DNA from: Callorhinchus milii
Lineage: Eukaryota
DNA: 64,000 nucleotides
Direction of reading: 5' to 3'
Assembly (NCBI RefSeq): GCF_018977255.1
Contig: NW_024704742.1
Location: forward strand, 22,384,001-22,448,000
In this document: positions 1,214-23,392 of the stretch, in pieces
Layout of the letters: the number at the start of each line of letters is the position of its first letter
How positions within the stretch are numbered: the stretch's first letter is position 1
The notes under the pieces: model-generated
The model's input: the letters and a program-made list of their open reading frames with translations, nothing else
Database searches by the model: none
Told to the model about the DNA's origin: nothing
Translations under genes and position numbers: made by a program

Positions 1214-1972
1214 TGTGTGTGTGTGTGTGTGTGTGAGTGTGTGAGTGAGTGAGTGTGAGTGAGTGTGCGTGTGTGTTCATGAGTGAGACCGAGTGAGTGT
1301 GTAAGTCAGTGTGTGAGTGGGTGTGAGAGTGAGTGAGTGTGTGAGTGTGTGAGTGTGTGTGTGAGTGTGTGAGTGAGTGTGAGTGAGTGTGTGAGTGTGA
1401 GTGAGTGTGTGAGTGAGAGTGTGAGTGAGTGTGAGTGTGTGAGTGAGAGAGTGTGAGTGTGTGAGAGAGTGTGTGTGAGTGAGAGAGTGTGAGTGAGTGT
1501 GAGTGAGTGTGTGTGTGTGAGAGTGAGTGTGAGAGTGTGTGAGTGAGTGTGTGAGAGTGTGAGTGAGTGTGTGAGTGAGAGAGTGTGAGTGAGTGTGTGA
1601 GTGAGAGTGTGTGAGTGAGTGTGTGAGTGAGTGTGTGTGAGAGTGTGTGAGTGAGAGAGTGTGAGTGTGAGTGTGTGAGTGAGAGTGAGTGAGTGTGTGA
1701 GTGAGTGAGTGAGTGCGTGTGTGAGAGTGAGTGAGTGTGAGAGTGTGTGAGAGAGTGTGAGTGAGTGTGAGTGAGAGTGTGTGTGTGAGTGAGTGTGTGA
1801 GTGAGTGAGTGTGTGAGTGAGAGAGTGTGAGAGAGTGTGTGTGAGTGAGAGTGTGTGAGTGAGTGTGTGAGTGTGTGAGTGAGTGTGAGAGTGAGTGAGT
1901 GTGTGTGTGTGAGTGTGTGAGTGAGTGAGTGAGTGTGAGTGTGAGAGTCAGTGAGTGTGTGAGTGAGTGTGT
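1214..1972. repeat. Compound (GT)n/(GAGT)n/(GTGA)n microsatellite
   Basis: About 760 bp made almost only of GT and GA dinucleotides. Confidence 0.98.
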
Positions 1973-2016
1973 ACACGGGTATACACAAAAAGACAAGTCA
2001 ACCACAGGACATCTAC

Positions 2017-2300
2017 CTGTAAAGCAGTCACTGGCTCCGGCCCCGGGAGGGAGGGAGGGAGGGGGAGGGAGCACAGACCCTGGTGATGGAGCAGTGCTTT
2101 CTCCCTGACGGTGCGGCACAGGCGCGACTTTTGAATTAATTGCAGCCGCTGTGCAGTTAGGACCCCCCTCCCCCTCCCCCCCCGGGGGGGCGGTGCGGGG
2201 ACAGGGCGGGGACGGGGCGAGGCCGCGCCGCGGGACCAGTGGCCATCCCCGCAGGTGCGTTTGAATGTCGCGCCGAGGGCAGAGCTCGAGGCACAAACCC
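2017..2300 (-). promoter_or_regulatory. CpG island, candidate promoter with non-coding first exon
   Basis: High GC and CpG density with GC boxes (gggcgg at about 2189 and 2204). Minus-strand donor ACAG|gtagat at 2017/2016; a plus-strand donor-like CAG|gtgcgt also occurs at 2254/2255. Confidence 0.6.
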
Positions 2301-2356
2301 GACTTCTCATTGCTCTACTGTTACTGTTTAAACACATCTGTACCTTAAACACCACC

Positions 2357-5300
2357 CGCACTGGGCCTCTCCCCCACTCACTGGGCCTCTCCCCCACACA
2401 CTGGGCCTCTCCCCCCACACACTGGGCCTCTCCCCCCACACACTGGGCCTCTCCCCCACACACACTGGGCCTCTCCCCCACACACTGGGCCTCTCCCCCC
2501 ACACACTGGGCCTCTCCCCCCACACACTGGGCCTCTCCCCCCACACTGGGCCTCTCCCCCACACACTGGGCCTCTCCCCCCACACACTGGGCCTCTCCCC
2601 CACACACTGGGCCTCTCCCCCCACTCCCCACACACTGGGCCTCTCCCCCCACCCCCCACACACTGGGCCTCTCCCCCCACACACTGGGCCTCTCCCCCCA
2701 CACACTGGGCCTCTCCCCCCCCCCCCACACACTGGGCCTCTCCCCCCCCCACACACTGGGCCTCTCCCCCCCCACACTGGGCCTCTCCCCCCACACACTG
2801 GGCCTCTCCCCCCACACACTGGGCCTCTCCCCCACACACTGGGCCTCTCCCCCACACACTGGGCCTCTCCCCCCCACCCCCCCCCCCACTGGGCCTCCCC
2901 CACACACTGGGCCTCTCCCCCACACACTGGGCCTCTCCCCCCACCCCCCACACACTGGGCCTCTCCCCCCACACACTGGGCCTCTCCCCCACACACTGGG
3001 CCTCTCCCCCACACACTGGGCCTCTCCCCCCCACACTGGGCCTCTCCCCCCACACTGGCCTCTCCCCCCCCCCCACTGGGCCTCTCCCCCCCCCACTGGG
3101 CCTCTCCCCCCCACTGGGCCTCTCCCCCCCACACTGGGCCTCTCCCCCCCCACACACTGGGCCTCTCCCCCCACACACTGGGCCTCTCCCCCCACACACT
3201 GGGCCTCTCCCCCACACACTGGCCTCTCCCCCACACACTGGGCCTCTCCCCCCCCACCCCCCCCCCACTGGGCCTCTCCCCCCCCCCACTGGGCCTCTCC
3301 CCCCACACACTGGGCCTCTCCCCCCACACACTGGGCCTCTCCCCCCACACACTGGGCCTCTCCCCCACACACTGGCCCTCCCCCACACACTGGGCCTCTC
3401 CCCCCCCACACACTGGGCCTCTCCCCCCACACACACTGGGCCTCTCCCCCCACACACTGGGCCTCTCCCCCCACACACTGGGCCTCTCCCCCCCCCCCCA
3501 CTGGGCCTCTCCCCCCACACACACTGGGCCTCTCCCCCACACACTGGGCCTCTCCCCCCCACACACTGGGCCTCTCCCCCCACACACTGGGCCTCTCCCC
3601 CACCCCCACACACTGGGCCTCTCCCCCCACACACACTGGGCCTCTCCCCCACACACTGGGCCTCTCCCCCACACACTGGGCCTCTCCCCCCACACACTGG
3701 GCCTCTCCCCCACCCGCACTGGGCCTCTCCCCCCACACACTGGGCCTCTCCCCCACACACTGGGCCTCTACCCCCCCCCACACACTGGGCCTCTACCCCC
3801 ACCCGCACTGGGCCTCTCCCCCACACACTGGCCTCTACCCACACCCCCCCCCCCCACACACACTGGGCCTCTCCCCCACACACTGGGCCTCTCCCCCCCC
3901 CGCACTGGGCCTCTCCCCCCACACACTGGGCCTCTCCCCCCACCCCCACACACTGGGCCTCTCCCCCACACACTGGGCCTCTCCCCCCACAGACTGGGCC
4001 TCTCCCCCCACACACTGGGCCTCTACCCCACCCCACACACACTGGGCCTCTACCCCACCCCACACACACTGGGCCTTTACCCCCACACACTGGGCCTCTC
4101 CCCCACACACTGGGCCTCTACCACCCACACACACTGGGCCTCTCCCACACACACTGGGCCTCTCCCCCCACACACTGGGCCTCTACCCCCACCCCCACAC
4201 ATACTGGCCTCTCCCCCCACACACTGGGCCTCTCCCCCCACAGACTGGGCCTCTCCCCCCACACACTGGGCCTCTACCCCACCCCCCACACACTGGGCCT
4301 CTACCCCCACACACTGGGCCTCTCCCCCCACCCCCACACACTGGGCCTCTACCCCACCCCACACACACTGGGCCTCTATCCCCACACACTGGGCCTCTCC
4401 CCCCCACACACTGGCCTACCCCACCCCACACACTGGGCCTTTACCCCCACACACTGGGCCTCTCCCCCACACACTGGGCCTCTACCCCACCCCACACACA
4501 CTGGGCCTCTACCCCCACACACTGGGCCTCTCCCCCCACCCCCCACACACTGGGCCTCTACCCCCACACACTGGGCCTCTACCCCCACACACTGGGCCTC
4601 TACCCCCCCCCCCCCACACACACTGGGCCTCTACCCCCCCCCCCCCACACTGGGCCTCTACCCCCCACACACACTGGGCCTCTACCCCCACACACTGGGC
4701 CTCTACACCCCCCCCCCCCCGCACTGGGCCTCTACCCCCACACACTGGGCCTCTACCCCACACACACTGGGCCGCTACCCCCACACACTGGGCCTCTCCC
4801 CCCACCCCCCACACACTGGGCCTCTCCCCCCCACACACACTGGGCCTCTCCCCCAACACACTGGGCCCTCTCCCCCCACACACGGGCCTTTACCCCCACA
4901 CACTGGGCCTCTCCCCCACACACACTGGGCCTCTACCCCACACACTGGGCCCTCTCCCCCACACACTGGGCCTCTACCCCACCCCACACACACTGGGCCT
5001 CTCCCCCCACACACTGGGCCTCTCCCCCCACACACTGGGCCTCTACCCCACCCCACACACACTGGGCCTCTCCCCCACACACTGGGCCTCTCCCCCCACA
5101 GACTGGGCCTCTACCCCCCCACACAACTGGGCCTCTACCCCACCCCCCACACACTGGGCCGCTATCCCCACACACTGGGCCTCTCCCCCCACACACTGGG
5201 CCTCTACCCCAACCCCCCCCACACACTGGGCCTTTACCCCCACACACTGGGCCTCTCCCCCCACACACTGGGCCTCTACCCCACCCCACACACACTGGGC

Positions 5301-6900
5301 CTCTACCCCCACACACTGGGCCTCTCCCCCACCCCCCACACACTGGGCCTCTACCCCCCACACACTGGGCCTCTACCCCCCCACACACTGGGCCTCTACC
5401 CCACCCCCCCCCCACACACACTGGGCCTCTACCCCCCCACACTGGCCTCTACCCCCACACACACTGGGCCTCTACCCCCACACACTGGGCCTCTACACCC
5501 CCCCACCCCCCCCCCCCGCACTGGGCCTCTACCCCCACACACTGGGCCTCTACCCCCCCCCCCCCCACACACACTGGGCCGCTACCCCCCCCCCCCCACA
5601 CACTGGGCCGCTACCCCCCCCCCACACACACTGGGCCTCTACCCCCACACACTGGGCCGCTACCCCCCCCACACACTGGGCCTCTACCCCACCCCCCACA
5701 CACTGGGCCGCTACCCCCCCATACACTGGGCCTCTACCCCACCCTCCCACACACTGGGCCGCTACCCCCACACACACACTGGGCCTCTACCCCCCACACA
5801 CACTGGGCCTCTACCCCCACCCCCTCTCCATACACTGGGCCTCTACTCCCCCCCCCCCCCCCCCGCACTGGGCCTCTACCCCCCACACACACTGGGCCTC
5901 TACCCCCCCCCCACACATACTGGGCCTCTACCCCCCCCCCCATACACTGGGCCTCTACCTCCCACACACACTGGGCCTCTAACCCCCCCCCCATACACTG
6001 GGCCTCTACCCCCCCCACACACACTGGGCCTCTACCCCCCCCCTCCCACACTGGGCCTCTACCCCCCCCACACTGGGCCTCTACCCCCCCCCACACTGGG
6101 CCTCTCCTGCCCCCCACACTGGGCCTCTCCCCCCCCACACACTGGGCCTCTCCCCCCCCACACACTGGGCCTCTCCCCCCCCCACACACTGGGCCTCTAC
6201 CCCCCCACACACTGGGCCTCTACCCCCCCCCACAAACTGGGCCTCTACCCCCCCCACACTGGGTCTCTACCCCCCCACTGGGCCTCTACCCCCACACACT
6301 GGGCCTCTACCCCCCCCACTGGGCCTCTACCCCCCCCACACTGGGTCTCTACCCCCCACTGGGCCTCTACCCCCCCCACACTGGGCCTCTACCCGCCCCC
6401 CCCCCACACTGGGCCTCTACCCCCCCACACTGGGTCTCTACCCCCCACTGGGCCTCTACCCCCCCCACACACTGGGCCTCTCCCCCCCACACACTGGGCC
6501 TCTCCCCCCCCACACACTGGGCCTCTACCCCCCCCCCCCACACTGGGCCTTTACCCCCCCACACACTGGGCCTCTACCCCCCCCACACACTGGGCCTCTA
6601 CCCCTCCCCACACTGGGTCTCTACCCCCCCACTGGGCCTCTACCCCCACACACTGGGCCTCTACCCCCCCCCACACTGGGTCTCTACCCCCCCACTGGGC
6701 CTCTACCCCCCCCCCCCACACTGGGTCTCTACCCGCCCCCCCCCCCACACAGGGCCTCTACCCCCCACACGCACTGGGCCTCTACCCCCCACACACTGGA
6801 TCTCTACCCCCCCACTGGGCCTCTACCCCCACACTGGGCCTCTACCCCCCCCCCCTCCCCCACACAGGGCCTCTACCCCCCACACTCTGGGCCTATCCCC
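2357..6900. repeat. C-rich minisatellite, unit about (CA)nCTGGGCCTCT(C/A)(C)n, 18-30 bp
   Basis: Roughly 200 tandem copies of ACACTGGGCCTCT followed by variable C runs; the CTCTC variant dominates on the left and CTCTA on the right. Confidence 0.98.
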
Positions 6901-8090
6901 CCCCCCACCCACCCACACTGGGCTCTGGTCTCTAACCCCCCACCACAACACTGGGCTCTGGGTCTCTAACCGCCCCTACACTGGGTTCTGGGTATCTAAC
7001 CCCCAACATTGGGCTCTGGGTCTCTAACCCCCACCCACACTGGGCTCTGGGTCTCTAACCCCCCCCCCCCAACACTGGGCTCTGGGTCTCTAACCCCCCA
7101 CCCCAACACTGGGCTCTGGGTCTCTAATCCCCTAACACTGGGCTCTGGGTCTCTAACCCCCCAACACTGGGCTCTAGGTCTCTAACCCCCCAACACTGGG
7201 CTCTAGGTCTCTAACCCCCCAACACTGGGCTCTGGGTTTCTAACTCCCAATACTGGCTTCTGGGTTTCTAACCCTCAATACTGGGCTCTGTGTTTCTACC
7301 TCCCCCCTCCCCCATACTACCCACTCTGTTTGTAAGCCCCCAATACTGTGCTTTGTGTTTCTACCCCCCCCCCCCCCCCCCACACACTTCAATACTACCT
7401 ATTTTGCTTCTAATCCCCTAATACTGGACTCTGGGTTTCTAACCCCCCCCCCCCCCCAATAATGGGCTCTGTGTTTCTGCCCCCCATCCCCATAATATCC
7501 ACTCTGTCTGTAAGCCCCCAATACTGGGCTCTGTGTTTCTACACCCCCCCTCTCAATAATACCTATTTACTTCTAATCCCCCAATAATGGGCTCTGGGTT
7601 TCCTACCACCAATACTGGGCTCTATGTTTCTAACGCCCCAATACAGGGCTCTTGGTTTCTAACCACCAATACTGAGGTCTGGGTTTCTAACCAACCCAAT
7701 ACTGGGCTCTGTGTTTCCCCTACCAGTACTGGGCTTTGGGTTTCTAACCACCCCCCAGTACTGGGCTCTGGGTTTCTGCCCCCGCGCCCCCAAAATGATG
7801 ATTGCATAAATTCATCCTCTATTGTGTTCCAGAAAGAAAACCAATCACCATCACTGATGGCCTCAGGTATCCAATCATGTGCACTGATGGCCTCACCAAT
7901 ATGGTCAGGGACAGAGCCCCAGCCCCAGTATTGTTGATCTGAGAACCCCAGCTCCAGTACTGAAGCCCAATTAACCTAACTCCCAGTATTGGGGGTCCTG
8001 GAAACCAAGCCTAATGCATTGATTTGCTAGAAATACAACACCACAGTATTGGAAGCCCTGGAAACTCAGCCTCATTATTGGAGACCCATC
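6901..8090. repeat. Degenerate older part of the same minisatellite
   Basis: Units drift from ACACTGGGCTCTGGGTCTCTAACCCC to AATACTGGGCTCTGTGTTTCTA; reverse-complement units (CCCAGTATTG) appear at about 7910-8090. Confidence 0.85.
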
Positions 8091-8250
8091 AGTTGCTGTG
8101 CGTTGGATTTCCATAACTTTATTATTGTCCTCTACCTCCAGGTAATTTGTGATTCTCCACACAGGTACAGTATTTTGTGATTATTTTCAACCCCCTACCC
8201 CCCATAATACAATAAACCATCAAGTGTACAAAAATAAATGAAGCACTCAC

Positions 8251-8303
8251 CCAATTTATGTTCCAAGGCCAGTCTGCTGAACTGTTCCATGAACCAACTT
8301 GAC
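8251..8303 (-). other. Possible 53-nt cassette exon
   Basis: Acceptor tttgattgacag| and donor |gtgagt; open on phase-2 entry (SSWFMEQFSRLALEHKL). No homology recognised. Confidence 0.3.
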
Positions 8304-8544
8304 CTGTCAATCAAACAGGTATGTGGATGTTCTGCTGCTGGAGAACATATGTCGGAGCAGAGGGTTTTCATTCAGCAGCTCACTCTGGAGCTAACGGCTG
8401 ATCTAACACAGAATTGGATCTAGGTGCTCCTGAGCTCAGAAATGCATTGGTTGGTTGCAATTTGCTTCAAGAAAAAGGCCCAATTCTCAAGACAGTGATA
8501 ATATAAATATACTGTCATTAAAACCTCAGCTGACCTCATTTTCA

Positions 8545-8800
8545 ATAATATTAATATTTGATGTAGCACCTTTCACCTCAGGAAGATCAAAACACTTCAC
8601 AGCATTTTACTGAAAGTGTAGTGACTACATATGTGATAGGCAAAATTTGTATACAGCAATTTCCCAACAAACAGCCATGAAGTGAATAAACAATTTTATT
8701 TGGGGGCTTGTTGGCCAAAATACCAGGAGAGACTCCTTTCAGTTTTTGAATAGTGCCATGGGATCTTTAAAGTCCACCTGAACAGGCAAGTAGATCTCAG
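8545..8800 (-). mobile_element. Old Deu-domain SINE fragment with L2-like tail
   Basis: tagtgccatgggatctttaaagtccacctgaacaggca is the reverse complement of the Deu domain. Confidence 0.75.
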
Positions 8801-10847
8801 GAGCAAGTTTTATATTCTCAATGCCTTTCATTAAGCATTAGATTAAGACAGCATTAGATCTGTAGACAGCATGAGCAAGAATACAGACATTGTGATGTAC
8901 ACAAACTGAATTTGTTGCGTCAATTGCAGCTTTCAGGTTGCGACCTCTCCTTTGTGAAACTCACAAATCCCAAGTCACCAACAGCCATATAAAATCCAGC
9001 AAACACAAGTGAGCAAAATTGACAGCTATTTTGCTTATCTATTTTTGACTCACGATTTCTAGGCCACACATTGCATTATGAATTTGACAAACTAAAAGTC
9101 AGAATTAAATCCCTTTGTTTGGTCTGAAGTTTACAACATTTATGCTCTAAAACAGATTTTCAAATGAAAAAACAGCATGTAAGTTTTTTAACCCATCAAT
9201 CATGAAAAATACTAATTAGAGGATAACAAATTTTAATTTGCTACATGTAATAAAATTGAAACATGAATAATACAATATTCAGAATGTTATTCCAACTACA
9301 AAAAAAAATAATCAGTTAAATGATGAGGAACAATTACATCCATCTATAAGATTACACCACAATTTTCATTTGGGAAGCATCATGGCATAAAACTGGTGCA
9401 AAAGTTACAGTATATAATATCAATCACACTCCAATTTGGCTGCTCCAACTCTGCCAAGATCCAGCAAAGTGGAACGGTAAAGTTTATAGACTATCCAGTT
9501 TAATAGCTGGAACAAACACAATACCCCAGAAGCCAATTGTCATTATGGCACAACAGAATTATGACCAAATTTTATTCAAAACAATGGTTGTGCAATTGGC
9601 TCTACGGTAATAATATTAGTCTATTGAACATTTCTATTTGACAGAAAGCTTTTAATTCCAGAATAAGCAAATTTTGATTCAGACCCACCTTATCTCTACC
9701 TACAGTGAGAGATAAATTCCTCAGCTCTTGAAGTCTGGGCTCCAGCAAAATGGCACTACAAAGCTCCACTCTAGTGACAATCCTAAAGAGATCCTACCTA
9801 AACTATGCTCAGGTTGTTTCTGACTTACAAATATTACAACTTAGACACATCTTAGAGACTCAAGTAAATATGACAGATGAAGATACTGTAGTTCTCATTT
9901 ATTATTAATATTGTTTATTTTATTGTCTAAAAATACTCCAAATTAACCTTGCATTAACATTGTTTGGTAACACTGAAAATCACACAGTAAGGACCACATT
10001 TGTATACACAAAGGAGGTTAACAATACTCTATAGTGTAAGGAAGAAGCTTGTGCTCCCAAGAACACAAACAAGACCGTTTTACATACCTAACTTGTTAAG
10101 ATCATTTTTATCATATAGACACAAACAGCTTTTAACCAGTCAACATTTATTTTCCATTACCAAAATAGTTGAATGATGAGCGCTCAAGCCTCTGTGCCTC
10201 GATGCACTCACTTGTCAGCAGAATTCATGGTCAAGAATGCACAGACCTGGTACCCCAGGTCGTGGGGGGCACATCCAGTTACAGAAATGCACCTTATTCC
10301 CTTTACACCACCTTCAGCACAGAACTCAATATTAAAAACTAGTCCACATTCATACAAAAAATGACCCTGAGATTTGCACAGGTGTGGTGAAGTCAGGTTG
10401 GTGATGAGGAACTCAGCAGTGTGTAGGCTGCATGGAGAGCTCGAATGGCTGGCGTCTCCGGAGAAATAACTGTAGTTATACTTCTCTCCCTCAACATCAG
10501 TGCTCAGATTTTGGGTTCTCAGGCTCCCTGACACACCAGGCCATGGAGATACCCAGGATATTTCCAGGTACAGAAACATAACACCCATTATCCCTTAATA
10601 CCACCTTCACCACAGACCTGACTTTCCAGACCTCCAATAATCATCAAACCTTCTGCTGAGCAAGTGTCATTCTTTTACTCTCTTCCGCTTTTTAAAAGTC
10701 ATTTTCGTTATATTGTTTTTCAGCTACAATTTATATGAAAAATTAAAATGGTTATTTTGGACATATAAAATTAAGATAACAGGTTTGGATATGTGACAGC
10801 ATAAAGGTGGTTTATAGTCTAAATCTTCTTGTATCTATAATCTGTCT

Positions 10848-11879: not shown

Positions 11880-12135
11880 ACCATTCCCTGAATGCGAGAA
11901 AGTAAACCCAGAACAATACTTTCAGATGCACTGACAGCAGAAACAAGAAATTTTAGTACATATTTCTTTACCCAGAGGGTAATTAACAACAAATTTGTTA
12001 CCAAGTGTGGTGATTGAGGTCAGGACACTGGACTTATTTAAAATTAATGCTGTGATGGGACGACAGCAGGATAAGGTATTCTGGAAGGATGAGGTCAAAA
12101 TAGGCTGAAGAGCCTTCTTCATTCAAAACTCTCAT
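11880..12135 (+). mobile_element. CR1 LINE 3' fragment
   Basis: Shares cagaacaatactttcagatg, tatttcttta, ggtaattaacaac, ctgtgatggga and aggatgag..caaa blocks with the CR1 copy at 35480-35845. Confidence 0.7.
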
Positions 12136-14174: not shown

Positions 14175-14820
14175 ATCCCTAATGCTCCATCCACAGTCCT
14201 CTTCTTTCTATCAGCTTGGTAACATTATCCACAGGCATGGAATCTACTTCGCATATATATGTAGATGACACACAACTCTACCTTTCTCTCTCTGGGGTAA
14301 CTTCGGGACCACTGCTGCTCTGATAGATTTCATGTCAATCACAGATTCTGGATGAACTGCAACTTTCTACAAATAAACTTCAACAACACTGCAGCTATCC
14401 TACTTAATGCTTGTCAGCACTTCCTTACTTCAGGCACTGACCTCCCAGATTGGTTACCCAATTCACAGAGCCTGTACTGAACCTCCGCATTTTGTTCAAC
14501 CATCAGCTCTCCTTTAAACCTTTCAACTGGCTATGACCAAGTGCACTTGCCTCCATCTACGCAACATTGTCTGCCTCCGCCACTCCTTTACCCCGCACCA
14601 TACAACCCCCTGTTTTTTTCACCTCCAGACTCAACTGTTCAAAGCGCTGCTTGTCCATATCTGCAGCTCCACCCTCCACAAGCTGGAGACCACCTAGAAC
14701 TCCACAGTCTATATCCTGTCCTGAATCAGACTCCACAAGTCCATTCCCCTTCCACCCCATTTTCACCCAGATCCACTGGCTTCCAATCTCCCCAAATGGA
14801 GTGATTTTAAGATACTTTTT
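14175..14820 (+). mobile_element. Degenerate L2 LINE RT fragment
   Basis: tatgtagatgacacacaactctac (YxDDTQLY), acctccagactcaactgttc (TSRLxxxN), atccactggcttccaat (xHWLP). Confidence 0.8.
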
Positions 14821-14824
14821 CTGA

Positions 14825-15090
14825 ACTTTATTTGGGGGACTGTTGACTAGGTCATCGCAAGAAGCTCTTCTCTTTTCGAATAGTGCCGTGGCATCTTTAA
14901 CATTCACCTCAACAGGTAGATGGGACCTCGGTTTAACACCTCATCCGAAGGATGGCACTTCCGACAATGCAACACGCCCCTAGCACTGGATTGGATTGGC
15001 ATCTTAAACAATGTGATTCCAATTCCCGAGGTGGGATTTGAACCCACAACTGTACGACTCAGAGGCTACCACTGAGCCGAACTGGCACAC
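14825..15090 (-). mobile_element. Deu-domain SINE with tRNA-like head
   Basis: Deu core gcatctttaacattcacctcaacaggtagatgggacctcggtttaacacctcatccgaagg; B-box-like ggatttgaaccc on the reverse strand. Confidence 0.85.
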
Positions 15091-16062
15091 TTAAATAATA
15101 CAAATTCATAGCCAAAATATTTTTTAAATGAAGCCATTTGATGCTTATTAACCAGGTTGCAAGCCTAAAATAGAAACCTGCAAAACCAAGATGCATCTGT
15201 AAATTGGGGATAATGACAATTTAAACAACAGTCTGAGCACCAAACAAATTCAGTGAAGAATAACCTATTACTGTTTATAAATAAATTAAGCCTGTCAAAA
15301 GATAATTTAATGGTGCAACTAGTATTTCAGGGACTTGTACTTCCTCATACACCTAGTATTGAAACTCTAAAGGGAGAAAAATTTCAAGATTTTTATGCAG
15401 ATCCTAATATAATGTATACAATTCTACTGCACTTTTTTAATCGTATACATATATATTTAAAAAACACACCCCTAATACAAGGATCATAAGAAATAATTGT
15501 AAGTTTGTCACAAATCATCTTCTTGTTACAAATTAATGCATGCAAAAAAACACAATTACTTAAACTATACTACTATAGAACACCTTAAAAGAATAGACAG
15601 CTATTAATAAACAATGATACTATTTTCCACATAACTCCTCCTGGAAAATTTGACACATATGTAAATTGTTACATTTTCACAATTGCACACTCATTACAGT
15701 TATCGTGAATTTACATAAATTCAACAATGAACCCAAAATAAAACACTACAGTATGTGAACTCTTCTGCCAATTCAGTTTTCAAGCTATTTTAAAAGCTTT
15801 CAAAGCAATATTTTTATAACCAGCATGTCAAAGCTGGTTGACAAGCTAAAAAAGGATACTGCTAATATGGTCTACATAGTTTTTATGACTGCAGGAACAA
15901 ATGCTAATTTCAGCTAACACATGTAAAATTTATACTTAATTTATTCTTGGTTGTTGTTCCATAGCCTTCAATGCATAGTATATAGCCAATCGTTCTCTCA
16001 GCTGAGAGAAAAGTTTTAAGGCAATATGTTTTACTAATTGAAATCTGCAGAGGTAGACTTAC

Positions 16063-16152
16063 ACATTAACTTCATATTTGGAGAGTCTCGATTGTTCATT
16101 CTGTTTTTTCAAGCGTTTTGCTGTTGCTATTCTTTCCTGCCGTGTTGGTATC
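16063..16152 (-). CDS. Coding exon 3 (90 nt, phase 2-2) of unidentified minus-strand gene
   Basis: Acceptor tttcttgtttccag| and donor |gtaagt. Joins in frame to exon 2 and reads (R)IPTRQERIATAKRLKKQNEQSRLSKYEVN(V). Confidence 0.75.
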
Positions 16153-16389
16153 CTGGAAACAAGAAATTCCCATTAGATATAATTTCATTGCTTTGAAAAG
16201 CTTGTTTTTCTTTTTTAACTGAGGACTAGTGGTTTCAGAAATAGAAAGTGTCCAACATTGCATTTCTTTGCCCATCATGAGCACTTGCATTTAACACTCA
16301 TCTGAATCCATTTTAGTGAGTTCAAAGTCCCGATATAGGGCTCAACCCATAACTTTCTAACTCTGAAGCATTAATACCATAATTTTTGC

Positions 16390-16620
16390 AATGCCTCACT
16401 TTCCAGCCTTCCCAACTGCACCCTCTGAACTCCCTTCCAAAATCCCTTTGCCTCGCCCCTTCCTCTCGGCTTTCAAATCCAACCTAAAGTCTTACTACAG
16501 TACCTAACTGTGCTTTTAGCCTCCCCGAGCTCCCAGCTCAGGCTCTCTCTCACTCAGTCTGTAAACCACAATGAGATATTCTGTGATTGTGAAAGGTCCT
16601 ATATAAGTGCAGACTGTTGA
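16390..16620 (+). mobile_element. L2 LINE 3' end fragment
   Basis: ctctgaactcccttcc...ccctttgcctcgccccttccctc...ttcaaatcc...gtgaaaggtcctatataagtgca, as in other L2 tails in this window. Confidence 0.6.
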
Positions 16621-16672
16621 AAGCACAAAACATTCAAATGCTGTTATAAAAATTAATCAAAAGCACACTTGC

Positions 16673-16788
16673 CTGTAAGTTGGCTTTGGAAATTGACTAG
16701 ATGGTGCCGAAGCACAAATTGCCTGCTGCAGCGGCAAACTGGGAAGCCCCCCTGGGCACTGGCCTGTAATAGCTGATAAAATACTCAT
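16673..16788 (-). CDS. Coding part of exon 2 (exon 16673-16836) with start codon
   Basis: Acceptor aatttattgcag| at 16837/16836; ATG at 16788 (ACAATGA); reads MSILSAITGQCPGGLPSLPLQQAICASAPSSQFPKPTY; donor ACAG|gcaagt (GC-AG intron). Confidence 0.7.
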
Positions 16789-17211
16789 TGTAACTGTACA
16801 CTAAGCCAGGTAGAGCGATCCAGAGATATTGAAATCCTGCAATAAATTAATAGAGTTCACAGATTTAGCCAAGTTTTGATCTGGAGAGAAATTTTTTATC
16901 CCCTGTTCTTCCATATCTCAACTCGCCTTGTAAATGTTTCACATTTGCTGACCGAGATTGTAGTTCACAAAACGACAATCGTGAATAATTAAAAGAAACA
17001 CTGGTTTCTTTTAGTTTAATTGTAGTTTTTTTAAAAAATTATTCTAATCAAGAACAACAGCAAACAGTTTTAAAAAAGAAAAGTTGCAATAACTCCTTTG
17101 TCTAAACAATTTCTTGACAGAATAAAATGTTTACGTGTTCACATTAATGGTAAAATGCATTGTGTTGATCACCCTGATGTGATAGTTGTATTCACTTTGC
17201 TGCTAATAGGT

Positions 17212-17425
17212 TTCAGTCTGGCGTAGTTGGTAGCACTCTCACCTCTGATTTCAAACATTGCGGGTTCAAGTTAGAAATCTAGGCTGCGCTCCAATACAGT
17301 TCTCAGAGTATGCTGCATTGTCAGGTTACTGACTTTCAGATGAGATGCTAAACCGAGGTCCCATCTGTCTGTTCGGGTGATTAATAAAGATACCATTGGA
17401 TTATTTGAAAAGAGAAAGGAGTTTC
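17212..17425 (+). mobile_element. Deu-domain SINE, 5' part
   Basis: tRNA-like head tggcgtagttggtagcactctcacctctga...gggttcaag, then Deu core ctttcagatgagatgctaaaccgaggtcccatctg. Confidence 0.8.
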
Positions 17426-17465
17426 AACTGAAAAAGAGACTGGATGAGTGCCTTTTCACATAACT

Positions 17466-17792
17466 GGAGTCCTGTAGCTCAGTGGTTAGAGCACTCGCTT
17501 TGCAAGCGAGAGACCTGAGTTCAATTCCAGGCAGGGTGAAACCTTGGGCAAGTTTCCTTACTCCACACGCCTAATAATAATCCCTTCAAAAAACAAACAA
17601 AAAACAATAATAAATTGGTCATTTTCAATCTACGACTGTTTGTGGGACATTGCTGTGCGCAATTGGCTGCCACGTTCGCCCACAAATATACAGTCAATTC
17701 ACTTTACAGTGTGTTCTGTGAAGCGCTTTGGGACGTCCTCCCGACGTGAAAAGCGCTATATCAAATGCAAGGATTATTATTATTATTATTAT
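17466..17792 (+). mobile_element. Young full-length tRNA(Ala-like)-derived SINE with L2-like tail
   Basis: A box tagctcagtgg, B box gagttcaattcc, body ccttgggcaagt..., tail tgaagcgctttgggacgtcctcccgacgtgaaaagcgctatatcaaatgcaagga(tta)n; several near-identical copies in the window. Confidence 0.95.
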
Positions 17793-17819
17793 AACATCTC
17801 ACAGGATTTACTCCAGATT

Positions 17820-18140
17820 GTACTGACTGTGTAGGCCAATGCTGCAGCCCATTTATGCACAGCAGTGTCCCACAACCAGCTATGAAGTGAATGACCAGTT
17901 TTATCGAGGATTCTTAGCCGAGACATCAGGAGAAACTCTCTTCTCTTTTTGAGTTATACCATGGGATCTTTAACGTCCAATTGCATAGGCAGACGGGACC
18001 TCGGTTTAGGGTTTCATTCGAAGAATGGAACCTCAGACTTCCCAGTACTGTACGGGAATGTCAGCCCAAACTATGTGAGTTCAAATTCATAACGTTTTGA
18101 TTCAAAAGCCAGAGTCTTGCCAACTGGCCCAGGCTGAGAC
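17820..18140 (-). mobile_element. Deu-domain SINE
   Basis: ccatgggatctttaacgtccaattgcataggcagacgggacctcggtttag (reverse Deu core). Confidence 0.8.
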
Positions 18141-19523
18141 ACATTTAATCAAATTTACGCAATTACCACATTTTAGATCCCCACCTCCACTGTTTCAGGT
18201 ATTTGTCAACAACCATAGAGTAATTATTCTATCAAGGAAACTCTTCAAAATTGATCAAAGCGGTTTTCTGTATTTATATTTTCACAAAAAAACAATAAGG
18301 ATCATGTTATTTTTCAATTTCTCAATTCAGCATTTCACTAAAGACAACATTTTAGCAACATTTATTCCTAAATGGAACAGTCAAATCAAATCAATACCAT
18401 TACTAACAGATACAAAAGACTGATTTTAGTATGTCTAAAAACTAATACGTTTCAGACAAAAACTGAATACATACATTTGAAATTAGCTTTCAGCAGAAAA
18501 CAAGATATTTCAAGAATGACGAGCAAATAATACATTTAGAATGATAGAGGAATTTATTTTGCCAATTTGGGCTTAAAATGTAATGCTGTGATTACCGATC
18601 ATTGCATCTAAAACTCCATCCAAAGGGATTTAATAATGAAAGCGGATTTCATGAATTAAGTTCACAGCATTAAAATTATGTTTGCGGTTTGGTGTTTCTA
18701 TCATTGCTGGGATTAACCTCAGTTTCAAATGTAGGTAGAGATTAGTCAGTTAAGTAATTGTTGAAACTAAATGACAAACAGGATGCAGGACCAAAGGGCA
18801 ACAAAATACTGTACCCCAAAGCTGCCTCGATGGGATGTTAGTAAGCCAGTGAATGTTTTGCTGGTTGCCTTGCATCCGAGCCGAGGCCAAAACACATCAC
18901 TGCTGCGGTTTCAATCACATCGCATTTATGTACGTTTGCGAGGGGGAATCGGGTCTATCACCAACTGACAGGAAGAGAGAGCGTGGGAGGGTGAGGGGGG
19001 GGGGGGGGAGAGAAACTTTTCAGACATTAACAAAGTGTTTGTCTCGGAGTGAGTTATTGGAGCTTATGACGCAGGTTGGGATAAAGCCAAGTAGCCTAAT
19101 ATCTCGAGCAGAAAACACCCGCAGCTGCAGTTAAACAAACAGAAGGAGTAAATAATATCCTCGACACACACACACCACACACAACAAGCGTAGATAGAGA
19201 GCAAGTGTCAAGTTAGCAAGAGTTGCAACCTTGTGTCAGACCCCCAGGGATCTAGATAAGACAAGTGGAAGAGTTTTAACTCACTTCTCGCCCGCTGGAG
19301 AGACAGACAGAGAGGGAGAGGGAATAGATTGTATTGTGTTGTAACGCAGTGAACTGTAGACCAGGCAACCAATTTGTCACAGCGGGAAATGTGCTGCACT
19401 GGTCACAGCAACTGAGAGAGAGAGAGAGAGAAAGAAAGAGAGTGAGTGATGGAGGGAGGAGAGACAAGAGAAGAAAGGAAGGAAAAGAGAGAAAAGAGGG
19501 GAAGAAGGTTGATGGGAAGAAGT

Positions 19524-19850
19524 GGAGTCCTGTAGCTCAGTGGTTAGAGCACTCGCTTTGCAAGCGAGAGACCTGAGTTCAATCCCAGGCAGGTCAGGGC
19601 GAAACCTTGGGCAAGTTTCCTTACTCCACACAGATCCTAATAATAATCCCTCCAAAACCAAAAACAATAATAAATTGGTCATTTTCAATCTACGACTGTT
19701 TGTGGGACATTGCTGTGCGCAATTGGCTGCCGCGTTCGCCCACAAATATACAGTCAATTCACTTTACAGTGTGTTCTGTGAAGCGCTTTGGGACGTCCTC
19801 CCGACGTGAAAAGTGCTATATCAAATGCGAGGATTATTATTATTATTATA
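19524..19850 (+). mobile_element. Young full-length tRNA-derived SINE (same family as 17466)
   Basis: Near-identical to 17466-17792. Confidence 0.95.
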
Positions 19851-19879: not shown

Positions 19880-21320
19880 TGGTGTCAGGGCTCCTCGGGG
19901 CTGTGTGTGAGTTAGTGAGTGAGCACTATCGGGGCTGTGAGTGAGTTAGTTAGTGAGCACTCTCGGGGCTGTTAGTTAGTGAGTGAGTTAGTTAGTGAGC
20001 ACTATCAGGGCTGCTCGGGGCTGTGAGTTAGTTAGTGAGTGAGTGAGTTAGTTAGTGAGCACTATCAGGGCTGCTCGGGGCTGTGAGTTAGTTAGTGAGT
20101 GAGTGAGTTAGTTAGTGAGCACTATCAGGGCTGCTCGGGGCTGTTAGTTACTTAGTGAGCACTATTGGGGCTGCGAGTCAGTTAGTGAGTTAGTGAGCAC
20201 TGTCAGGGCTGCTCGGGGCTGTGAGCTAGTTAGTTAGTGAGCACTATCGGGGCTGTGAGTTAATTAGTTAGTGAGCACTATCAGGACTGCTCGGGGCTGT
20301 AAGTTAGTTAGTGAGTGAGTTAGTTAGTTAGCACTATCAGGGCTGTGAGTTAGTTAGTGAGTGAGTTAGTTAGTGAGCACTACCAGGGCTGCTCGGGGCT
20401 GTGAGTTAGTTAGTGAGTGAGTTAGTTGGTGAGCACTATCGGGGCTGTGAGTTAGTTAGTGAGTGAGTTAGTTGGTGAGCATTATCGGGGCTGTGAGTTA
20501 GTGAGTGAGTTAGTTGGTGAGCACTATCAGGGCTGCTCGGGGCTGTGAGTTAGTTAGTTAGTGAGTGAGTGAGTTGGTGAGCACTATCAGGGCTGCTCGG
20601 GGCTGTGAGTTAGTTAGTTAGTGAGTGAGTGAGTTGGTGAGCACTATCAGGGCTGTGAGTTAGTGAGTGAGTTGATGAGCACTGTTGGGGCTGTGCGTTA
20701 GTGAGTGAGTGAGTTGGTGAGCACTGTCGGCGCTGTGAGTTAGTTAGTGACACAGTGAGTTGGTGAGCACTGTCGGGGCTGTGAGTTAGTGAGTTGGTGA
20801 GCACTGTCGGGGCTGTGAGTTAGTGAGTGAGTGAGTGGGTGAGCAGTGTCGGGGCTGTGAGTCAGTGAGTGAGTGAGTTGGTGAGCACTGTCGGCGTTGC
20901 TCGGGGCTGTGAGTTAGTTAGTGAGTGAGTTGGTGAGCACTGTCGGCGCTGCTCGGGGCTGTGAGTGAGTGAGTTGGTGAGCACTATCGGGGCTGTGAGT
21001 TAGTGAGTGAGTTAGTTGGTGAGCAGTATCAGGGCTGCTCGGGGCTGTGAGTTAGTTAGTTAGTGAGTGAGTGAGTTGGTGAGCACTATCAGGGCTGTGA
21101 GTTAGTGAGTGAGTGAGTTGATGAGCACTGTTGGGGCTGTGCGTTAGTGAGTGAGTGAGTTGGTGAGCACTGTCGGGGCTGTGAGTTAGTTAGTGAGTGA
21201 GTGAGTGAGCACTGTCGGCGCTGCTCGGGGCTGTGAGTTAGTTAGTGAGTGAGTGGGTGAGCACTGTCGGCGCTGTGAGTTAGTTAGTGAGTGAGTGAGC
21301 ACTGTCGGCGCTGCTCGGGG
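19880..21320. repeat. Minisatellite, unit about GTGAGT(TAGT/GAGT)nGAGCACT(A/G)TC(A/G)GGGCT(GCTCGGGGCT)
   Basis: About 35 tandem units of 30-60 bp directly visible. Confidence 0.97.
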
Positions 21321-21345
21321 TTGGGGGTCTCGAGCTGTTACTCAC

Positions 21346-21441
21346 CGCCGCCGCCACAACCTGAGTCTCGGCGTCTCCTTGACAACCGCGCGAGCGTCAC
21401 CACCACAAGGGCGGGAACCGGGGCACGTGCGGCCCCGCGCC
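21346..21441 (-). promoter_or_regulatory. CpG-island promoter and non-coding exon 1 of the minus-strand gene
   Basis: CpG-dense block with donor GCG|gtgagt at 21346/21345, GC box gggcggg, E-box CACGTG (about 21424) and an RFX X-box at 21373-21386. Confidence 0.75.
21373..21386. promoter_or_regulatory. RFX X-box GTCTCCTTGACAAC
   Basis: Close match to the 14-bp X-box pattern (GTYNCY-AT-RGNAAC type), located at a putative TSS. Confidence 0.6.
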
Positions 21442-23095
21442 GTCACTCCCCCTCCCCCCCCCCCCCCTCCTGGTCACTCCCCCTCCCCCCCCCCCTCCTG
21501 GTCACTCCCCCTCCCCCCCCCTCCTGGTCACTCCCCCTCCCCCCCCTCCCCCTGGTCACTCCCCCTCCCCCCCCCTCCCTCCTGGTCACTCCCCCTCCCC
21601 CCTCCTGGTCACTCCCCCCCCCTCCTGGTCACTCCCCCTCCCCCCCCCCTCCTGGTCACTCCCCTCCCCCCCCCTCCCTCCTGGTCACTCCCCCTCCCCC
21701 CCCTCCCCCTCCCCCCCCCTCCCCCTCCTGGTCACTCCCCCCCCCCCTCCTCCTGGTCACTCCCCCTCCCCCCCCTCCCCCTGGTCACTCCCCCTCCCCC
21801 CCCTCCCTCCTGGTCACTCCCCCCCCCCCTCCCTCCTGGTCACTCCCCCCCCTCCTGGTCACTCCCCCTCCCCACCCCCCCCTCCTGGTCACTCCCCTCC
21901 CCCTCCTCCCCCCCTCCTGGTCACTCCCCCTCCCCCCCCCCTCCTGGTCACTCCCCCTCCCCCCCCCTCCTGGTCACTCCCCCTCCCCCCCCTCCCCTGG
22001 TCACTCCCCCTCCCCCCCCTCCCTCCTGGTCACTCCCCTCCCCCCCTCCCCTCCCCCCTCCCCCTCCTGGTCACTCCCCCCCCCCCCCCTCCTGGTCACT
22101 CCCCCTCCCCCCCCCTCCTGGTCACTCCCCCTCCCCACCCCCTCCTGGTCACTCCCCTTCCCACCCCCTCCCCCTGGTCACTCCCCCTCCCCCCTCCCTC
22201 CTGGTCACTCCCCCTCCCCCCCCTCCCCTGGTCACTCCCCTCCCCCCCCTCCCTCCTGGTCACTCCCCCCCCCCTCCCTCCTGGTCACTCCCCCCCCTCC
22301 TGGTCACTCCCCCTCCCCACCCCCCCCTCCTGGTCACTCCCCTCCCCCCTCCTCCCCCCCTCCTGGTCACTCCCCCTCCCCCCTCCCTCCTGGTCACTCC
22401 CCCCCCCCCCCTCCCTCCTGGTCACTCCCCCCCCCTCCTGGTCACTCCCCCTCCCCACCCCCCCCTCCTGGTCACTCCCCCTCCCCCCCCCTCCTGGTCA
22501 CTCCCCCTCCCCACCCCCCTCCTGGTCACTCCCCCTTCCCACCCCTCCCCCTGGTCACTCCCCCTCCCCCCCCTCCTGGTCACTCCCCCTCCCCACCCCC
22601 CTCCTGGTCACTCCCCCTTCCCACCCCTCCCCCTGGTCACTCCCCCTCCCCCCTCCCTCCTGGTCACTCCCCTCCCCCCCCTCCCCTGGTCACTCCCCCT
22701 CCCCCCCCTCCCTCCTGGTCACTCCCCCCCCCTCCCTCCTGGTCACTCCCCCCCCTCCTGGTCACTCCCCTCCCCACCCCCCCTCCTGGTCACTCCCCCT
22801 CCCCCCTCCTCCCCCCCCTCCTGGTCACTCCCCCTCCCCCCCTCCCTCCTGGTCACTCCCCCCCCCCCCCTCCTGGTCACTCCCCCTCCCCCCCCCCCCT
22901 CCTGGTCACTCCCCTCCCCACCCCCCCCCTCCTGGTCACTCCCCCTCCCCCCTCCTCCCCCCCCTCCTGGTCACTCCCCTCCCCCCTCCCCCTCCTGGTC
23001 ACTCCCCTCCCCCCCCCCCTCCTGGTCACTCCCCTCCCCACCCCCTCCTGGTCACTCCCCCTTCCCACCCTCCTGGTCACTCCCCCTCCCCCCGC
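21442..23095. repeat. C-rich minisatellite, unit CCTGGTCACTCCCC(T)(C)n
   Basis: About 60 tandem units with an invariant core CTGGTCACT and variable C runs. Confidence 0.98.
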
Positions 23096-23392
23096 CGCCA
23101 GGTAACTCCCCTCTCCCAGCGGCCAGTGGCCAGGTCACTCCCTCTCCCCGCGGCCAGCGGCCAGTGGCCAGGTCACTCCCTCTCCCCGCGGCCAGCGGCC
23201 AGGTCACTCCCTCTCCCCGCGGCCAGGTCCCTCCCAGCGGCCAGGTCCCTCCCAGCGGCCAGGTCACTCCCAGCAGCTGGGTCACTCACAGCAGCCGGGT
23301 CACTCACAGCAGCCGGGTCACTCCCAGCGGCCGGGTATCTCCTGCTCCCAGCGGCCAGGGCACACCCGCTCACCGTGGCCGGGTCACACCTG
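23096..23392. repeat. Degenerate related units (GCGGCCAGGTCACTCCC) flanking the array
   Basis: ggccaggtcactccctctccccgc and cagccgggtcactcac repeats share the GGTCACTC core. Confidence 0.85.

What the first reader, a model, noticed from the sequence alone, without database searches (positions are those of the whole stretch)
1214..23392. Two CpG islands share the same three-part architecture and polarity
Seen: island 1 (2017-2300) and island 2 (21346-21441) each have a minus-strand donor near the left edge, a GTGAGT-rich array to the left (1214-1972; 19880-21320) and a C-rich minisatellite immediately to the right (2357-6900; 21442-23095). The corresponding arrays have different units, so this is not a recent duplication. 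No comparable array occurs elsewhere in the 64 kb. Inference: promoter edges act as hotspots for strand-biased repeat expansion (recombination, R-loops or G4), or the arrays act as island boundaries. This is the most system-like pattern in the window.
Basis: partly seen in the sequence, partly recalled or inferred. Interest (0 to 1): 0.7.

Follow-up and report, generated by a model that had tools for sequence, protein, structure and literature searches.

The report
Repeat arrays flanking TTC29 CpG islands
Two small CpG-rich patches at the start of the elephant-shark TTC29 gene are each hemmed in by long locus-specific tandem repeats, which looks like ordinary repeat growth beside CpG islands rather than a special system.

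Summary
They are strongly strand-biased. No comparable array lies elsewhere in the window.

Both "islands" belong to one gene, TTC29, on the minus strand; the match is 100% to Callorhinchus milii TTC29.
- Island 2 is its first exon and promoter. Spliced contigs from two studies join the donor at 21346 to downstream exons.
- Island 1 lies inside the 22-kb intron 3. Its donor is only a motif and was not tested.

Each array unit is unique to this locus. The two modules share no homology apart from SINEs.

In 327 kb sampled from this genome, 4 of 6 array clusters abut GC-rich CpG islands (P about 0.02-0.06). One of them flanks the first exon of an SHB-like gene, where both arrays are G-rich on the same strand. 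A crude genome-wide pattern count shows no preferred polarity.

Island 1 with its arrays also recurs 22.4 kb upstream at 98.7% identity, next to a 30-N gap. This is probably assembly redundancy.

Verdict: promoter-proximal minisatellites, a known kind. The shared polarity is probably coincidence. The scan noted a similar case before, on other DNA (e1-627199).

The parts
1214..1972 (.). L1: imperfect (TG)n/(GTGA)n array, G/T-rich on the + strand. It lies in TTC29 intron 3 and reads CA/CTCA-rich in the pre-mRNA.
   Evidence: TRF. GTGAGT x82, GC skew +0.96. Present in both assembly copies.
1973..2356 (.). Island 1: a 384-bp CpG-rich unique patch (25 CpG, o/e 0.67, GC 0.62) with GC boxes. It is an orphan intragenic CpG island, and a possible but unproven alternative promoter.
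   Evidence: It lies inside the intron between TTC29 exons at 16062 and -5908.
2011..2020 (-). Candidate donor ACAG|GTAGAT (exon end 2017). It is a motif only.
   Evidence: Sequence read. No transcript evidence obtained.
2357..8080 (.). R1: C-rich minisatellite. The core is 21-bp CACTGGGCCTCTCCCCCCACA units, homogeneous next to island 1. It grades through CTCTACCCCC variants into 28-29-bp decayed units distally.
   Evidence: TRF. Sequence. Self-similarity falls from 0.70-0.78 to 0.35-0.39. A two-unit pattern is found only here and in the assembly duplicate, 60 of 60 hits.
117..506 (-). Open frame used as the first coding exon in the 528-aa TTC29 model P0003. It has a GAG|GTAAAA donor at 117. 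It is not conserved.
   Evidence: tblastn. Only P0003 of 120 TTC29-family proteins matches it. No Pfam family.
16672..16836 (-). TTC29 exon 2. It holds the ATG at 16788 and follows an AG acceptor at 16838-16837.
   Evidence: tblastn of P0002 aa 1-39, 100%. Sequence. The contig overhang matches 16806-16835.
16062..16154 (-). TTC29 exon 3 (aa 39-69). It is followed by the 22-kb intron that holds R1, island 1 and L1.
   Evidence: tblastn. Sequence.
18935..18964 (-). Start of an alternative second exon (acceptor ...tcctgtcag|TTGGTG at 18964). Its downstream end is not determined.
   Evidence: The overhang of the X4 contig joined to 21346 matches here exactly. Sequence.
19526..19850 (+). Full-length tRNA-derived SINE copy, ending about 30 bp before L2.
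   Evidence: Rfam tRNA hit at 19526-19597. Alignment A1.
19880..21320 (.). L2: 34-102-bp units (GTGA/GTTA runs plus GCACT(A/G)TC(A/G)GGGCTG(CTCGGGGCTG)). It is G-rich on the + strand and lies in TTC29 intron 1, starting about 25 nt after the donor. Units near the island carry somewhat more CpG.
   Evidence: TRF. Sequence. GTGAGT x86. The unit pattern gives 11 of 11 hits in this array only. CpG profile.
21346..21378 (-). TTC29 exon 1 (non-coding), with donor GGCG|GTGAGT. The contigs end at 21375-21381, so the true 5' end is not fixed.
   Evidence: read laying. The X1 contig joins it to exon 2. The X4 contig joins it to the exon at 18964.
21321..21441 (.). Island 2 core: 121 bp of unique sequence (16 CpG, o/e 1.08) between the two arrays. 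It holds exon 1 and about 60-95 bp upstream of it.
21442..23095 (.). R2 core: 27-28-bp unit GTCACTCCCCCTCCCCCCCCCCCTCCTG, CpG-free, upstream of the TTC29 start. It is G-rich and G4-prone on the gene's coding (minus) strand.
   Evidence: TRF. 32 canonical G4 motifs, 19.3 per kb. The unit pattern gives 49 of 50 hits here.
23096..23395 (.). R2 tail: 18-38-bp CpG-bearing units (CTCCCAGCGGCCGGGTCA and similar) sharing GGTCACTCCC with the core.
   Evidence: TRF. Sequence. 20 CpG.
23409..23554 (+). 5'-truncated SINE copy abutting the R2 tail. SINE homology may reach to about 23378 (GGTCA...CTCTAC). This suggests, without showing, that R2 grew out of its broken 5' end.
   Evidence: blastn hits at 23447-23554. 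Alignment A1.

Best explanation
The finding covers the 5' end of one gene, TTC29 (a tetratricopeptide-repeat gene), transcribed on the minus strand.

Gene layout:
- Island 2 is the TTC29 core promoter plus a short non-coding first exon. Its donor at 21346 is spliced either to exon 2 (16836, which carries the ATG) or to an alternative exon at 18964.
- Island 1 is an orphan CpG island in the middle of the 22-kb intron 3. It may or may not fire as an alternative promoter.

The arrays:
- The four arrays are locus-specific tandem repeats born in place. Low-complexity, strand-asymmetric seeds beside the GC-rich patches were amplified by replication slippage and unequal exchange. The seeds would be (TG)n/(GTGA)n runs on one side and C-run-rich sequence on the other. 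For R2 the seed was possibly the broken end of a SINE.
- They persist because they lie in introns or upstream DNA.
- R1 shows a young, homogeneous end at the island and an old, decayed far end.
- Arrays beside CpG-island first exons recur in this genome. This is a mutational habit of such regions, already known for human VNTRs.
- The matching left-G, right-C polarity of the two modules is most simply a one-in-four coincidence or a local effect. It is not a rule or a device.

Shown: the arrays, their uniqueness, the gene structure and the island 2 splice.
Inferred: the mode of growth, the lack of function and the status of island 1.
For: - Arrays and strand bias.
- Gene identity: one search gives a 100% match to C. 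milii TTC29 over 70% of the exon query. All 118 other named or unnamed hits listed are TTC29-like or unlabelled.
- Exon map: one search places aa 1-69 at 16788-16062 and the next exons at -5893, -7354 and -16166. Island 1 with L1 and R1 is therefore intronic.
- Exon 1: one search shows the X1 contig (320 nt, study P1) and the X4 contig (464 nt, study P2) both ending their match at 21345/21346. Their overhangs match 16806-16835 and 18935-18964 exactly. Expected chance matches are 0 in 100 shuffles each.
- In-situ origin: the unit patterns occur only at this locus. L2 gives 11 of 11 hits, R1 60 of 60 (including the assembly duplicate) and R2 49 of 50. The tool notes that counts are lower bounds.
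- No paralogy between the modules.
- Gradient in R1.
- Recurrence elsewhere: 4 of 6 array clusters in 326,673 bases abut strong CpG islands. Cluster B flanks the first coding exon of an SHB-like gene (96 hits at E<=0.001, and those that carry a source name are mostly SH2 domain-containing adapter protein B or F-like).
- No polarity rule.
- Human precedent: PMC8096271 passages report VNTRs enriched 1 kb upstream of genes, in CpG islands and at TSSs.
Against: - The association with CpG islands (P 0.02-0.06) and the island-proximal youth of R1 also fit an active, island-centred process, not mere tolerance.
- At both islands the G-rich strand would be the leading-strand template for forks leaving the island. 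It would also be the template strand for divergent transcription. A coincidence reading does not explain this symmetry.
- Only R1 shows a clear gradient. L1, L2 and R2 are flat, so 'growth from the island edge' rests on one array.
- The sample is small (6 clusters, one chromosome). My CpG-island criteria also pick up LINE and SINE fragments.
- The runs laid are only guessed to be RNA, although a contig lacking a 4.5-kb GT..AG intron is hard to explain otherwise.
- Function was not tested. About 60 copies of a CCCCTCCCCC-type box directly upstream of a 121-bp core promoter could matter for TTC29 expression.
Confidence: 0.6

Rival explanations
1. Island-centred initiation drives the arrays. In a species whose PRDM9 looks degenerate, CpG islands would be fixed sites of meiotic breaks and/or replication origins. 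Repair or fork stalling at their edges would nucleate and keep expanding the arrays. The G-rich strand would be the leading-strand template on both sides, which would explain the flip of skew at each island.
For: - 4 of 6 array clusters abut CpG islands.
- R1 is youngest at the island.
- The skew flips from + to - across both islands.
- R2 has 19.3 G4 motifs per kb on the strand that would template leading-strand synthesis for a fork leaving island 2.
- Baker et al. 2017 (PMC5519329, passages read) report three things for C. milii PRDM9. It is partial (KRAB-SET). Its zinc fingers show no rapid evolution. It was the sole species with an ortholog in which no testis expression was detected.
- The abstract of PMC7063842 states that the G4 minisatellite CEB1 is unstable during leading-strand replication without Pif1.
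Against: - The SHB-like promoter has G-rich arrays on the same strand on both sides.
- Genome-wide mirror-image counts are equal, 108 against 116.
- The L arrays have no G4 motifs.
- Three of four arrays show no gradient.
- There are no recombination or origin data for this species.
- Many strong CpG islands in the sample carry no array: 24 of 26 in the 200-kb block.
Confidence: 0.22
2. The arrays are functional parts of the TTC29 regulatory region. They would act as multi-copy factor-binding platforms or as boundaries that keep the tiny islands nucleosome-free and unmethylated.
For: - The unique core at island 2 is only 121 bp, so any proximal regulatory sequence must lie in the arrays.
- R2 repeats a CCCCTCCCCC-type box about 60 times. 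That such boxes bind Sp/KLF/MAZ-type factors is recalled, not tested.
- L2 units nearest the island keep somewhat more CpG.
- Human promoter VNTRs can alter expression (introduction of PMC8096271).
Against: - No assay or conservation data.
- The units at the two islands differ.
- Arrays elsewhere have other units and polarities.
- R1 and L1 flank an island with no shown transcript.
- Decay at the far end of R1 suggests no constraint on sequence.
Confidence: 0.08
3. The arrays, or their size and arrangement, are assembly artefacts.
For: - A 22.4-kb direct duplicate (98.665% over 22,471 columns) ends in R1 at a 30-N run.
- The copies differ by 55 mismatches and 162 gap openings. Of these, 127 are short deletions in the upstream copy. 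They break TTC29 exon frames there, while the TTC29 protein sequences (P0002, P0003) hold each exon once.
- A 25-N run also ends an array at the SHB-like locus.
Against: - L1 and the first 1 kb of R1 are present in both copies. They differ only by 5-9-base indels in the arrays.
- The window contig runs through all four arrays without N.
- Contigs of two runs end or continue in L2 units at 21290-21320.
- The N run could be a withheld stretch rather than a gap, as the tool text allows.
Confidence: 0.07

Closest known systems
Promoter- and CpG-island-proximal minisatellite VNTRs of the human genome (Eslami Rasekh et al. 2021, PMC8096271; single-gene examples such as the INS and HRAS1 minisatellites are recalled)
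   Same: Tandem units of 7-100 bp lie within about 1 kb of a start site or CpG island. The units are locus-specific and GC-rich. The enrichment is described genome-wide (passages read).
   Different: Here two arrays of opposite strand bias clamp a very small unique core on both sides. The species is a holocephalan. Polymorphism and any effect on expression are untested.
G-quadruplex-forming minisatellites CEB1/CEB25 (PMC5491262, PMC7063842; abstracts seen)
   Same: R2 carries a canonical G4 motif in nearly every unit on one strand (32 in 1,654 bp). In yeast such arrays rearrange in an orientation-dependent way.
   Different: R1 has few canonical motifs (7 in 4.5 kb) and L1 and L2 have none. 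No instability data exist here.
Class IV 'reverse GC skew' CpG-island promoters (Ginno et al. 2013, PMC3787257; methods passage read)
   Same: Downstream of the TTC29 start the coding strand is C-rich (L2 skew -0.53 on the minus strand). This is skew opposite to the R-loop-prone class.
   Different: Here the skew comes from a tandem array, not from diffuse composition. Their classes were defined on human promoters. R-loops were not measured here.
Orphan intragenic CpG islands (recalled concept; no paper read here)
   Same: Island 1 is a CpG-rich, GC-box-bearing patch inside a gene, away from the annotated start.
   Different: Its methylation state and promoter activity are unknown.
   Same: A C-rich, G4-prone minisatellite directly flanks a CpG island. 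That case was judged ordinary and derived from a retrotransposon end.
   Different: That one grew from an L1 tail. Here a SINE end is only a possible seed for R2, and the other three arrays have no visible transposon origin.

Membership tests
CpG-island promoter (island 2) | GC >= 0.5 and CpG o/e >= 0.6 over >= 200 bp | tested here: met
   Marginal. The core is 121 bp with o/e 1.08. The 200-bp criterion is met for 21191-21570 only when repeat flanks are included.
CpG-island promoter (island 2) | Holds a transcription start or first exon | tested here: met
   Contigs of runs X1 and X4 (two studies) carry 21346-21375/78 joined to downstream exons across GT..AG introns. The exact start site is not fixed, and the runs are only guessed to be RNA.
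CpG-island promoter (island 2) | Unmethylated in the germ line or in tissues | not testable with these tools
   No methylation data. CpG retention is the only hint.
CpG-island promoter (island 1) | GC >= 0.5 and CpG o/e >= 0.6 over >= 200 bp | tested here: met
   2101-2400: GC 0.65, o/e 0.73, 23 CpG. 1973-2356: o/e 0.67.
CpG-island promoter (island 1) | Holds a transcription start or first exon with a used donor | not tested
The donor at 2017 is a motif only. The model P0003 starts at 506, not in the island.
Minisatellite / VNTR | Head-to-tail units of about 10-100 bp | tested here: met
   R1 21 bp x196, R2 28 bp x61, L2 34-102 bp. L1 is closer to a compound microsatellite (periods 4-12).
Minisatellite / VNTR | Copy number varies between alleles | tested here: inconclusive
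   The two assembly copies differ in the arrays by 5-9-base indels, not by whole units. No population data.
G4-forming minisatellite (CEB1-like) | Four G-runs of >= 3 with loops of 1-7 within or between units | tested here: met
   Met for R2 (32 motifs, 19.3 per kb on the minus strand). Weak for R1 (7 in the core). Not met for L1 and L2 (0).
R-loop-prone GC-skew promoter (Ginno class I) | G-rich coding strand downstream of the start | tested here: not met
   Downstream of exon 1 the coding (minus) strand is C-rich: L2 + strand skew is +0.53.
Paralogous modules from a segmental duplication | Collinear homology between the two island-plus-array units | tested here: not met
   blastn with word size 9 gave 18 hits, all <= 205 bp and non-collinear. 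Those at 17.6-19.85 kb fall on the SINE copies.
Dispersed repeat or transposon-borne array | Unit sequence found at other loci in the genome | tested here: not met
   L2 0 of 11, R1 0 of 60 and R2 1 of 50 (2 mismatches) hits lie outside the locus or its assembly duplicate. By contrast, pure (GTGA)12 is common: 2054 + 1750 overlapping matches.

The most novel reading that the evidence does not exclude
In the elephant shark, whose PRDM9 appears degenerate, CpG islands would be fixed initiation sites for meiotic breaks or replication. Tandem arrays would then accrete at their edges, with the G-rich strand as the template of the outgoing fork or transcript. Paired arrays of flipped skew would be a sequence-only fossil record of initiation sites, readable without any functional assay. 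The TTC29 locus would then show two such sites 19 kb apart.
Probability: 0.1. Interest if true: 0.6.

Novelty: new member of a known kind. Interest (0 to 1): 0.25.

Why it matters
Mostly as a correction and a caution.
- The two "promoters" are one promoter and one intronic island of a single gene.
- The striking symmetry is not a genome rule.
- The region is an assembly trouble spot. It carries a probable false 22-kb duplication that doubles three TTC29 exons.

If the small-sample link between arrays and CpG islands holds genome-wide, the elephant shark would be a cheap place to test an open question. The question is whether promoter-directed recombination, expected where PRDM9 has decayed, leaves a repeat signature. 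That would bear on how hotspots shape vertebrate genomes.

Tried and rejected
- **Old tandem duplication of a 19-22-kb unit.** Rejected: the two modules share only short, non-collinear matches, mostly to SINE copies.
- **Arrays as copies of a dispersed satellite or transposon.** Rejected for L2, R1 and R2.
- **Expression search.** No RNA holder was listed. Runs X1-X6 are only guessed to be RNA.
- **Read laying coverage.** Parts of the 181-base stretch had no cover (21325-21344 and 21381-21470). Nothing is inferred from them.
- **Reads over the arrays and island 1.** I did not lay reads there. Array lengths and island 1 transcription therefore stay untested.
- **Genome-wide sampling.** Flanks of (GTGA)n loci could not be cut out either.
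- **Conservation of the TTC29 N-terminal exons and of the 117-506 frame.** Of 120 proteins, only the two C. milii entries match there. This is uninformative for short, fast-evolving exons.
- **Pfam on the 114-614 frame.** No family.
- **Notes of this scan.** There are none on this genome.
- **Apparent fifth example at C1:60.02 Mb.** A C-rich repeat beside a 'CpG island' proved to be a 100-bp repeat in a LINE tail, so I did not count it.
- **Gradient of repeat homogeneity.** Clear in R1 only.
Full report
**What is in the sequence**

The window is vertebrate-like: GC 0.44 and CpG o/e 0.28. It is G000:C1:22384001-22448000 of a 991.5-Mb assembly.

- L1, 1214-1972, is an imperfect (TG)n/(GTGA)n mix.
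- R1, 2359-6711, has 196 copies of a 21-bp unit, CACTGGGCCTCTCCCCCCACA. Variant 23-29-bp units continue to 7777. By eye, decayed units run to about 8080.
- L2, 19895-21319, has 34-102-bp units rich in GTGA/GTTA.
- R2, 21442-23093, has 60.6 copies of a 28-bp unit. A tail of 18-38-bp CpG-bearing units follows to 23395.

Nothing comparable lies in the other 40 kb; the longest TRF row there is 96 bp.

The strand bias is extreme. GC skew is +0.96 (L1) and +0.53 (L2), against -0.62 (R1 core) and -0.81 (R2 core). The hexamer GTGAGT occurs 82 and 86 times in L1 and L2, and 15 times in the remaining about 52 kb.

The "islands" are small. Island 1 is 384 bp with 25 CpG (o/e 0.67). The island 2 core is 121 bp with 16 CpG (o/e 1.08).

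**What the islands are**

An open frame in the left flank matches TTC29 of Callorhinchus milii at 100% identity. It also matches TTC29 of many vertebrates.

I mapped the 472-aa protein P0002 by tblastn.
- Residues 1-39 lie at 16788-16672 and residues 39-69 at 16154-16062, on the minus strand.
- The next exons lie 5.9, 7.4 and 16.2 kb to the left of the window.
- The ATG exon is preceded by an AG acceptor, so a non-coding exon must lie upstream.

I laid contigs of four public runs on the repeat-free stretch 21290-21470.
- One contig of run X1 (study P1) covers 21345-21378. Its overhang matches 16806-16835 exactly.
- One contig of run X4 (study P2) covers 21346-21375. Its overhang matches 18935-18964 exactly, just after a good acceptor.

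Island 2 is the TTC29 first exon and core promoter, with two splice forms. One caveat: the runs are only guessed to be RNA, and contigs cannot fix the start site.

Island 1, L1 and R1 lie inside the 22-kb intron between 16062 and -5908.
- The island 1 donor (ACAG|GTAGAT at 2017) is a weak motif that I could not test.
- A gene model (P0003) uses an unconserved open frame at 506-117 as its first exon.
- Island 1 is therefore best called an orphan intragenic CpG island and a possible alternative promoter.

**Origin of the arrays**

The two modules are not paralogous. A sensitive blastn between them gives 18 short, non-collinear hits. Those between 17.6 and 19.85 kb fall on copies of a tRNA-derived SINE.

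The units are locus-specific in the whole genome.
- The L2 pattern gives 11 of 11 hits in L2.
- The R1 pattern gives 60 of 60 hits in R1 or its assembly duplicate.
- The R2 pattern gives 49 of 50 hits in R2 (the tool notes that counts are lower bounds).

Pure (GTGA)12, by contrast, is a common microsatellite: 2054 + 1750 overlapping matches.

R1 is homogeneous next to island 1 and decays with distance. Self-similarity falls from 0.70-0.78 to 0.35-0.39, and the unit types change. The other three arrays show no such gradient.

The R2 tail abuts a 5'-truncated SINE. Its GGTCAC core may continue SINE sequence.

L2 begins about 30 bp after the 3' end of a full SINE and about 25 nt after the exon 1 donor.

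**Is this a rule?**

I could hold only 326,673 non-redundant bases of this genome: the locus, 200 kb at C1:5.0 Mb and 25 kb at C1:60.0 Mb.

Arrays of 200 bp or more form 6 clusters there, and 4 of them abut a GC-rich CpG island.
- The four are island 1, island 2 and two in the 200-kb block.
- Random placement gives a mean of 1.5-1.8 (P 0.02-0.06).
- The two that do not are a CT/CA-then-GTGA array in the left flank and a (GATG)n run.
- Most strong islands carry no array: 24 of 26 in the block.

One of the new cases is the first coding exon of an SHB-like gene on the + strand.
- It has (GTGTGTGGGTGT)n directly upstream.
- It has (TGGAGTGGGTGAGTGA)n starting at its donor.
- Both are G-rich on the same strand, so the window's polarity is not repeated.

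I also ran a crude genome-wide count.
- '(GTGA)4, 130-160 bases, C10' gives 108 matches against 116 for its mirror image.
- The G10 partner gives 166 and 164. These are overlapping matches, not loci.

With two islands, matching polarity has a chance of about one in four (inference).

**Mechanisms weighed**

- R-loops are disfavoured. Transcripts leaving either island in either direction would be C-rich, the reverse of the skew that promotes R-loops. The TTC29 promoter resembles the "reverse skew" class IV of Ginno et al. 2013 (PMC3787257, methods passage).
- G4 potential is high only in R2 (32 motifs), low in R1 (7 in the core) and nil in L1 and L2.
- An island-centred initiation model would explain the skew flip. 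Baker et al. 2017 report a partial, slowly evolving and unexpressed PRDM9 in this species (PMC5519329, passages). Orientation-dependent instability of G4 minisatellites is also known (abstract of PMC7063842). This model is contradicted by the SHB-like case and by the mirror counts.
- Enrichment of VNTRs near start sites and CpG islands is already described in humans (PMC8096271, passages).

**Assembly**

The stretch -19024..3377 (island 1, L1, the first 1 kb of R1 and three TTC29 exons) recurs directly upstream at -41416..-19122.
- Identity is 98.665%, and a 30-N run sits exactly at the junction inside R1.
- The copies differ by 55 mismatches and 162 gap openings. Of these, 127 are short deletions in the upstream copy. 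They break exon frames there.
- The TTC29 protein sequences (P0002, P0003) hold each exon once.

This is most likely redundant assembly at a contig break caused by the array. The N run could in principle be a withheld stretch instead.

The duplicate also shows that L1 and proximal R1 assemble reproducibly. A 25-N run likewise ends an array at the SHB-like locus.

**Verdict**

The "system-like" shared architecture reduces to one promoter and one intronic island of TTC29. Each is flanked by in-situ-grown, locus-specific repeats whose common polarity is not a genome rule.

Noticed in passing
G000:C1 about 22342585-22364880 against 22364977-22387377 (window -41416..-19122 against -19024..3377; loci L005-L009): A 22.4-kb direct duplicate at 98.7% identity, with a 30-N run at the junction inside the R1 array. 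It doubles three TTC29 exons, and the upstream copy carries many 1-bp deletions. Probably a false duplication in the assembly.
   Followed up: yes
L027:836-3754 (G000:C1:5170836-5173754): The first coding exon of an SHB-like gene (MAKWLREYFNFG...) sits in a CpG island between two G-rich arrays. The downstream array, (TGGAGTGGGTGAGTGA)n, begins at the exon's own GTGAGT donor, in sense orientation. The intron therefore opens with dozens of donor-like sites. A 25-N run ends that array.
   Followed up: partly
window 17468, 19526, 30731, 36425, 49743 (+ strand): Five Rfam tRNA hits are the heads of a tRNA-derived SINE family. Further 3' fragments occur, for example at 23447-23554 and in the left flank.
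   Followed up: partly
window 101-650: A CpG-rich stretch (25 CpG, o/e 0.67) with a loosely repeated CTGGAGTCC(G/T) motif about every 60 bp. It overlaps the unconserved open frame that one TTC29 gene model uses as its first exon.
   Followed up: no
window 45548-46723 (-), 52825-53340 (+), 60500-61826 (+): Fragments of retrotransposon reading frames. The one at 45993-46508 hits Pfam RVT_1 (E 1.9e-16). Their GC-rich 3' parts pass loose CpG-island criteria and inflate island counts.
   Followed up: partly
left flank, window -43857..-43177 (L005): A 680-bp array with the mirror arrangement: CT/CA-rich on the left, then (GTGA/GTCA)n on the right. It has no CpG island between or beside it.
   Followed up: partly
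window 16672-16680 (-): TTC29 exon 2 appears to end at a GC donor (ACAG|GCAAGT) rather than GT. This is inferred from where the protein match ends and was not checked against transcripts.
   Followed up: no
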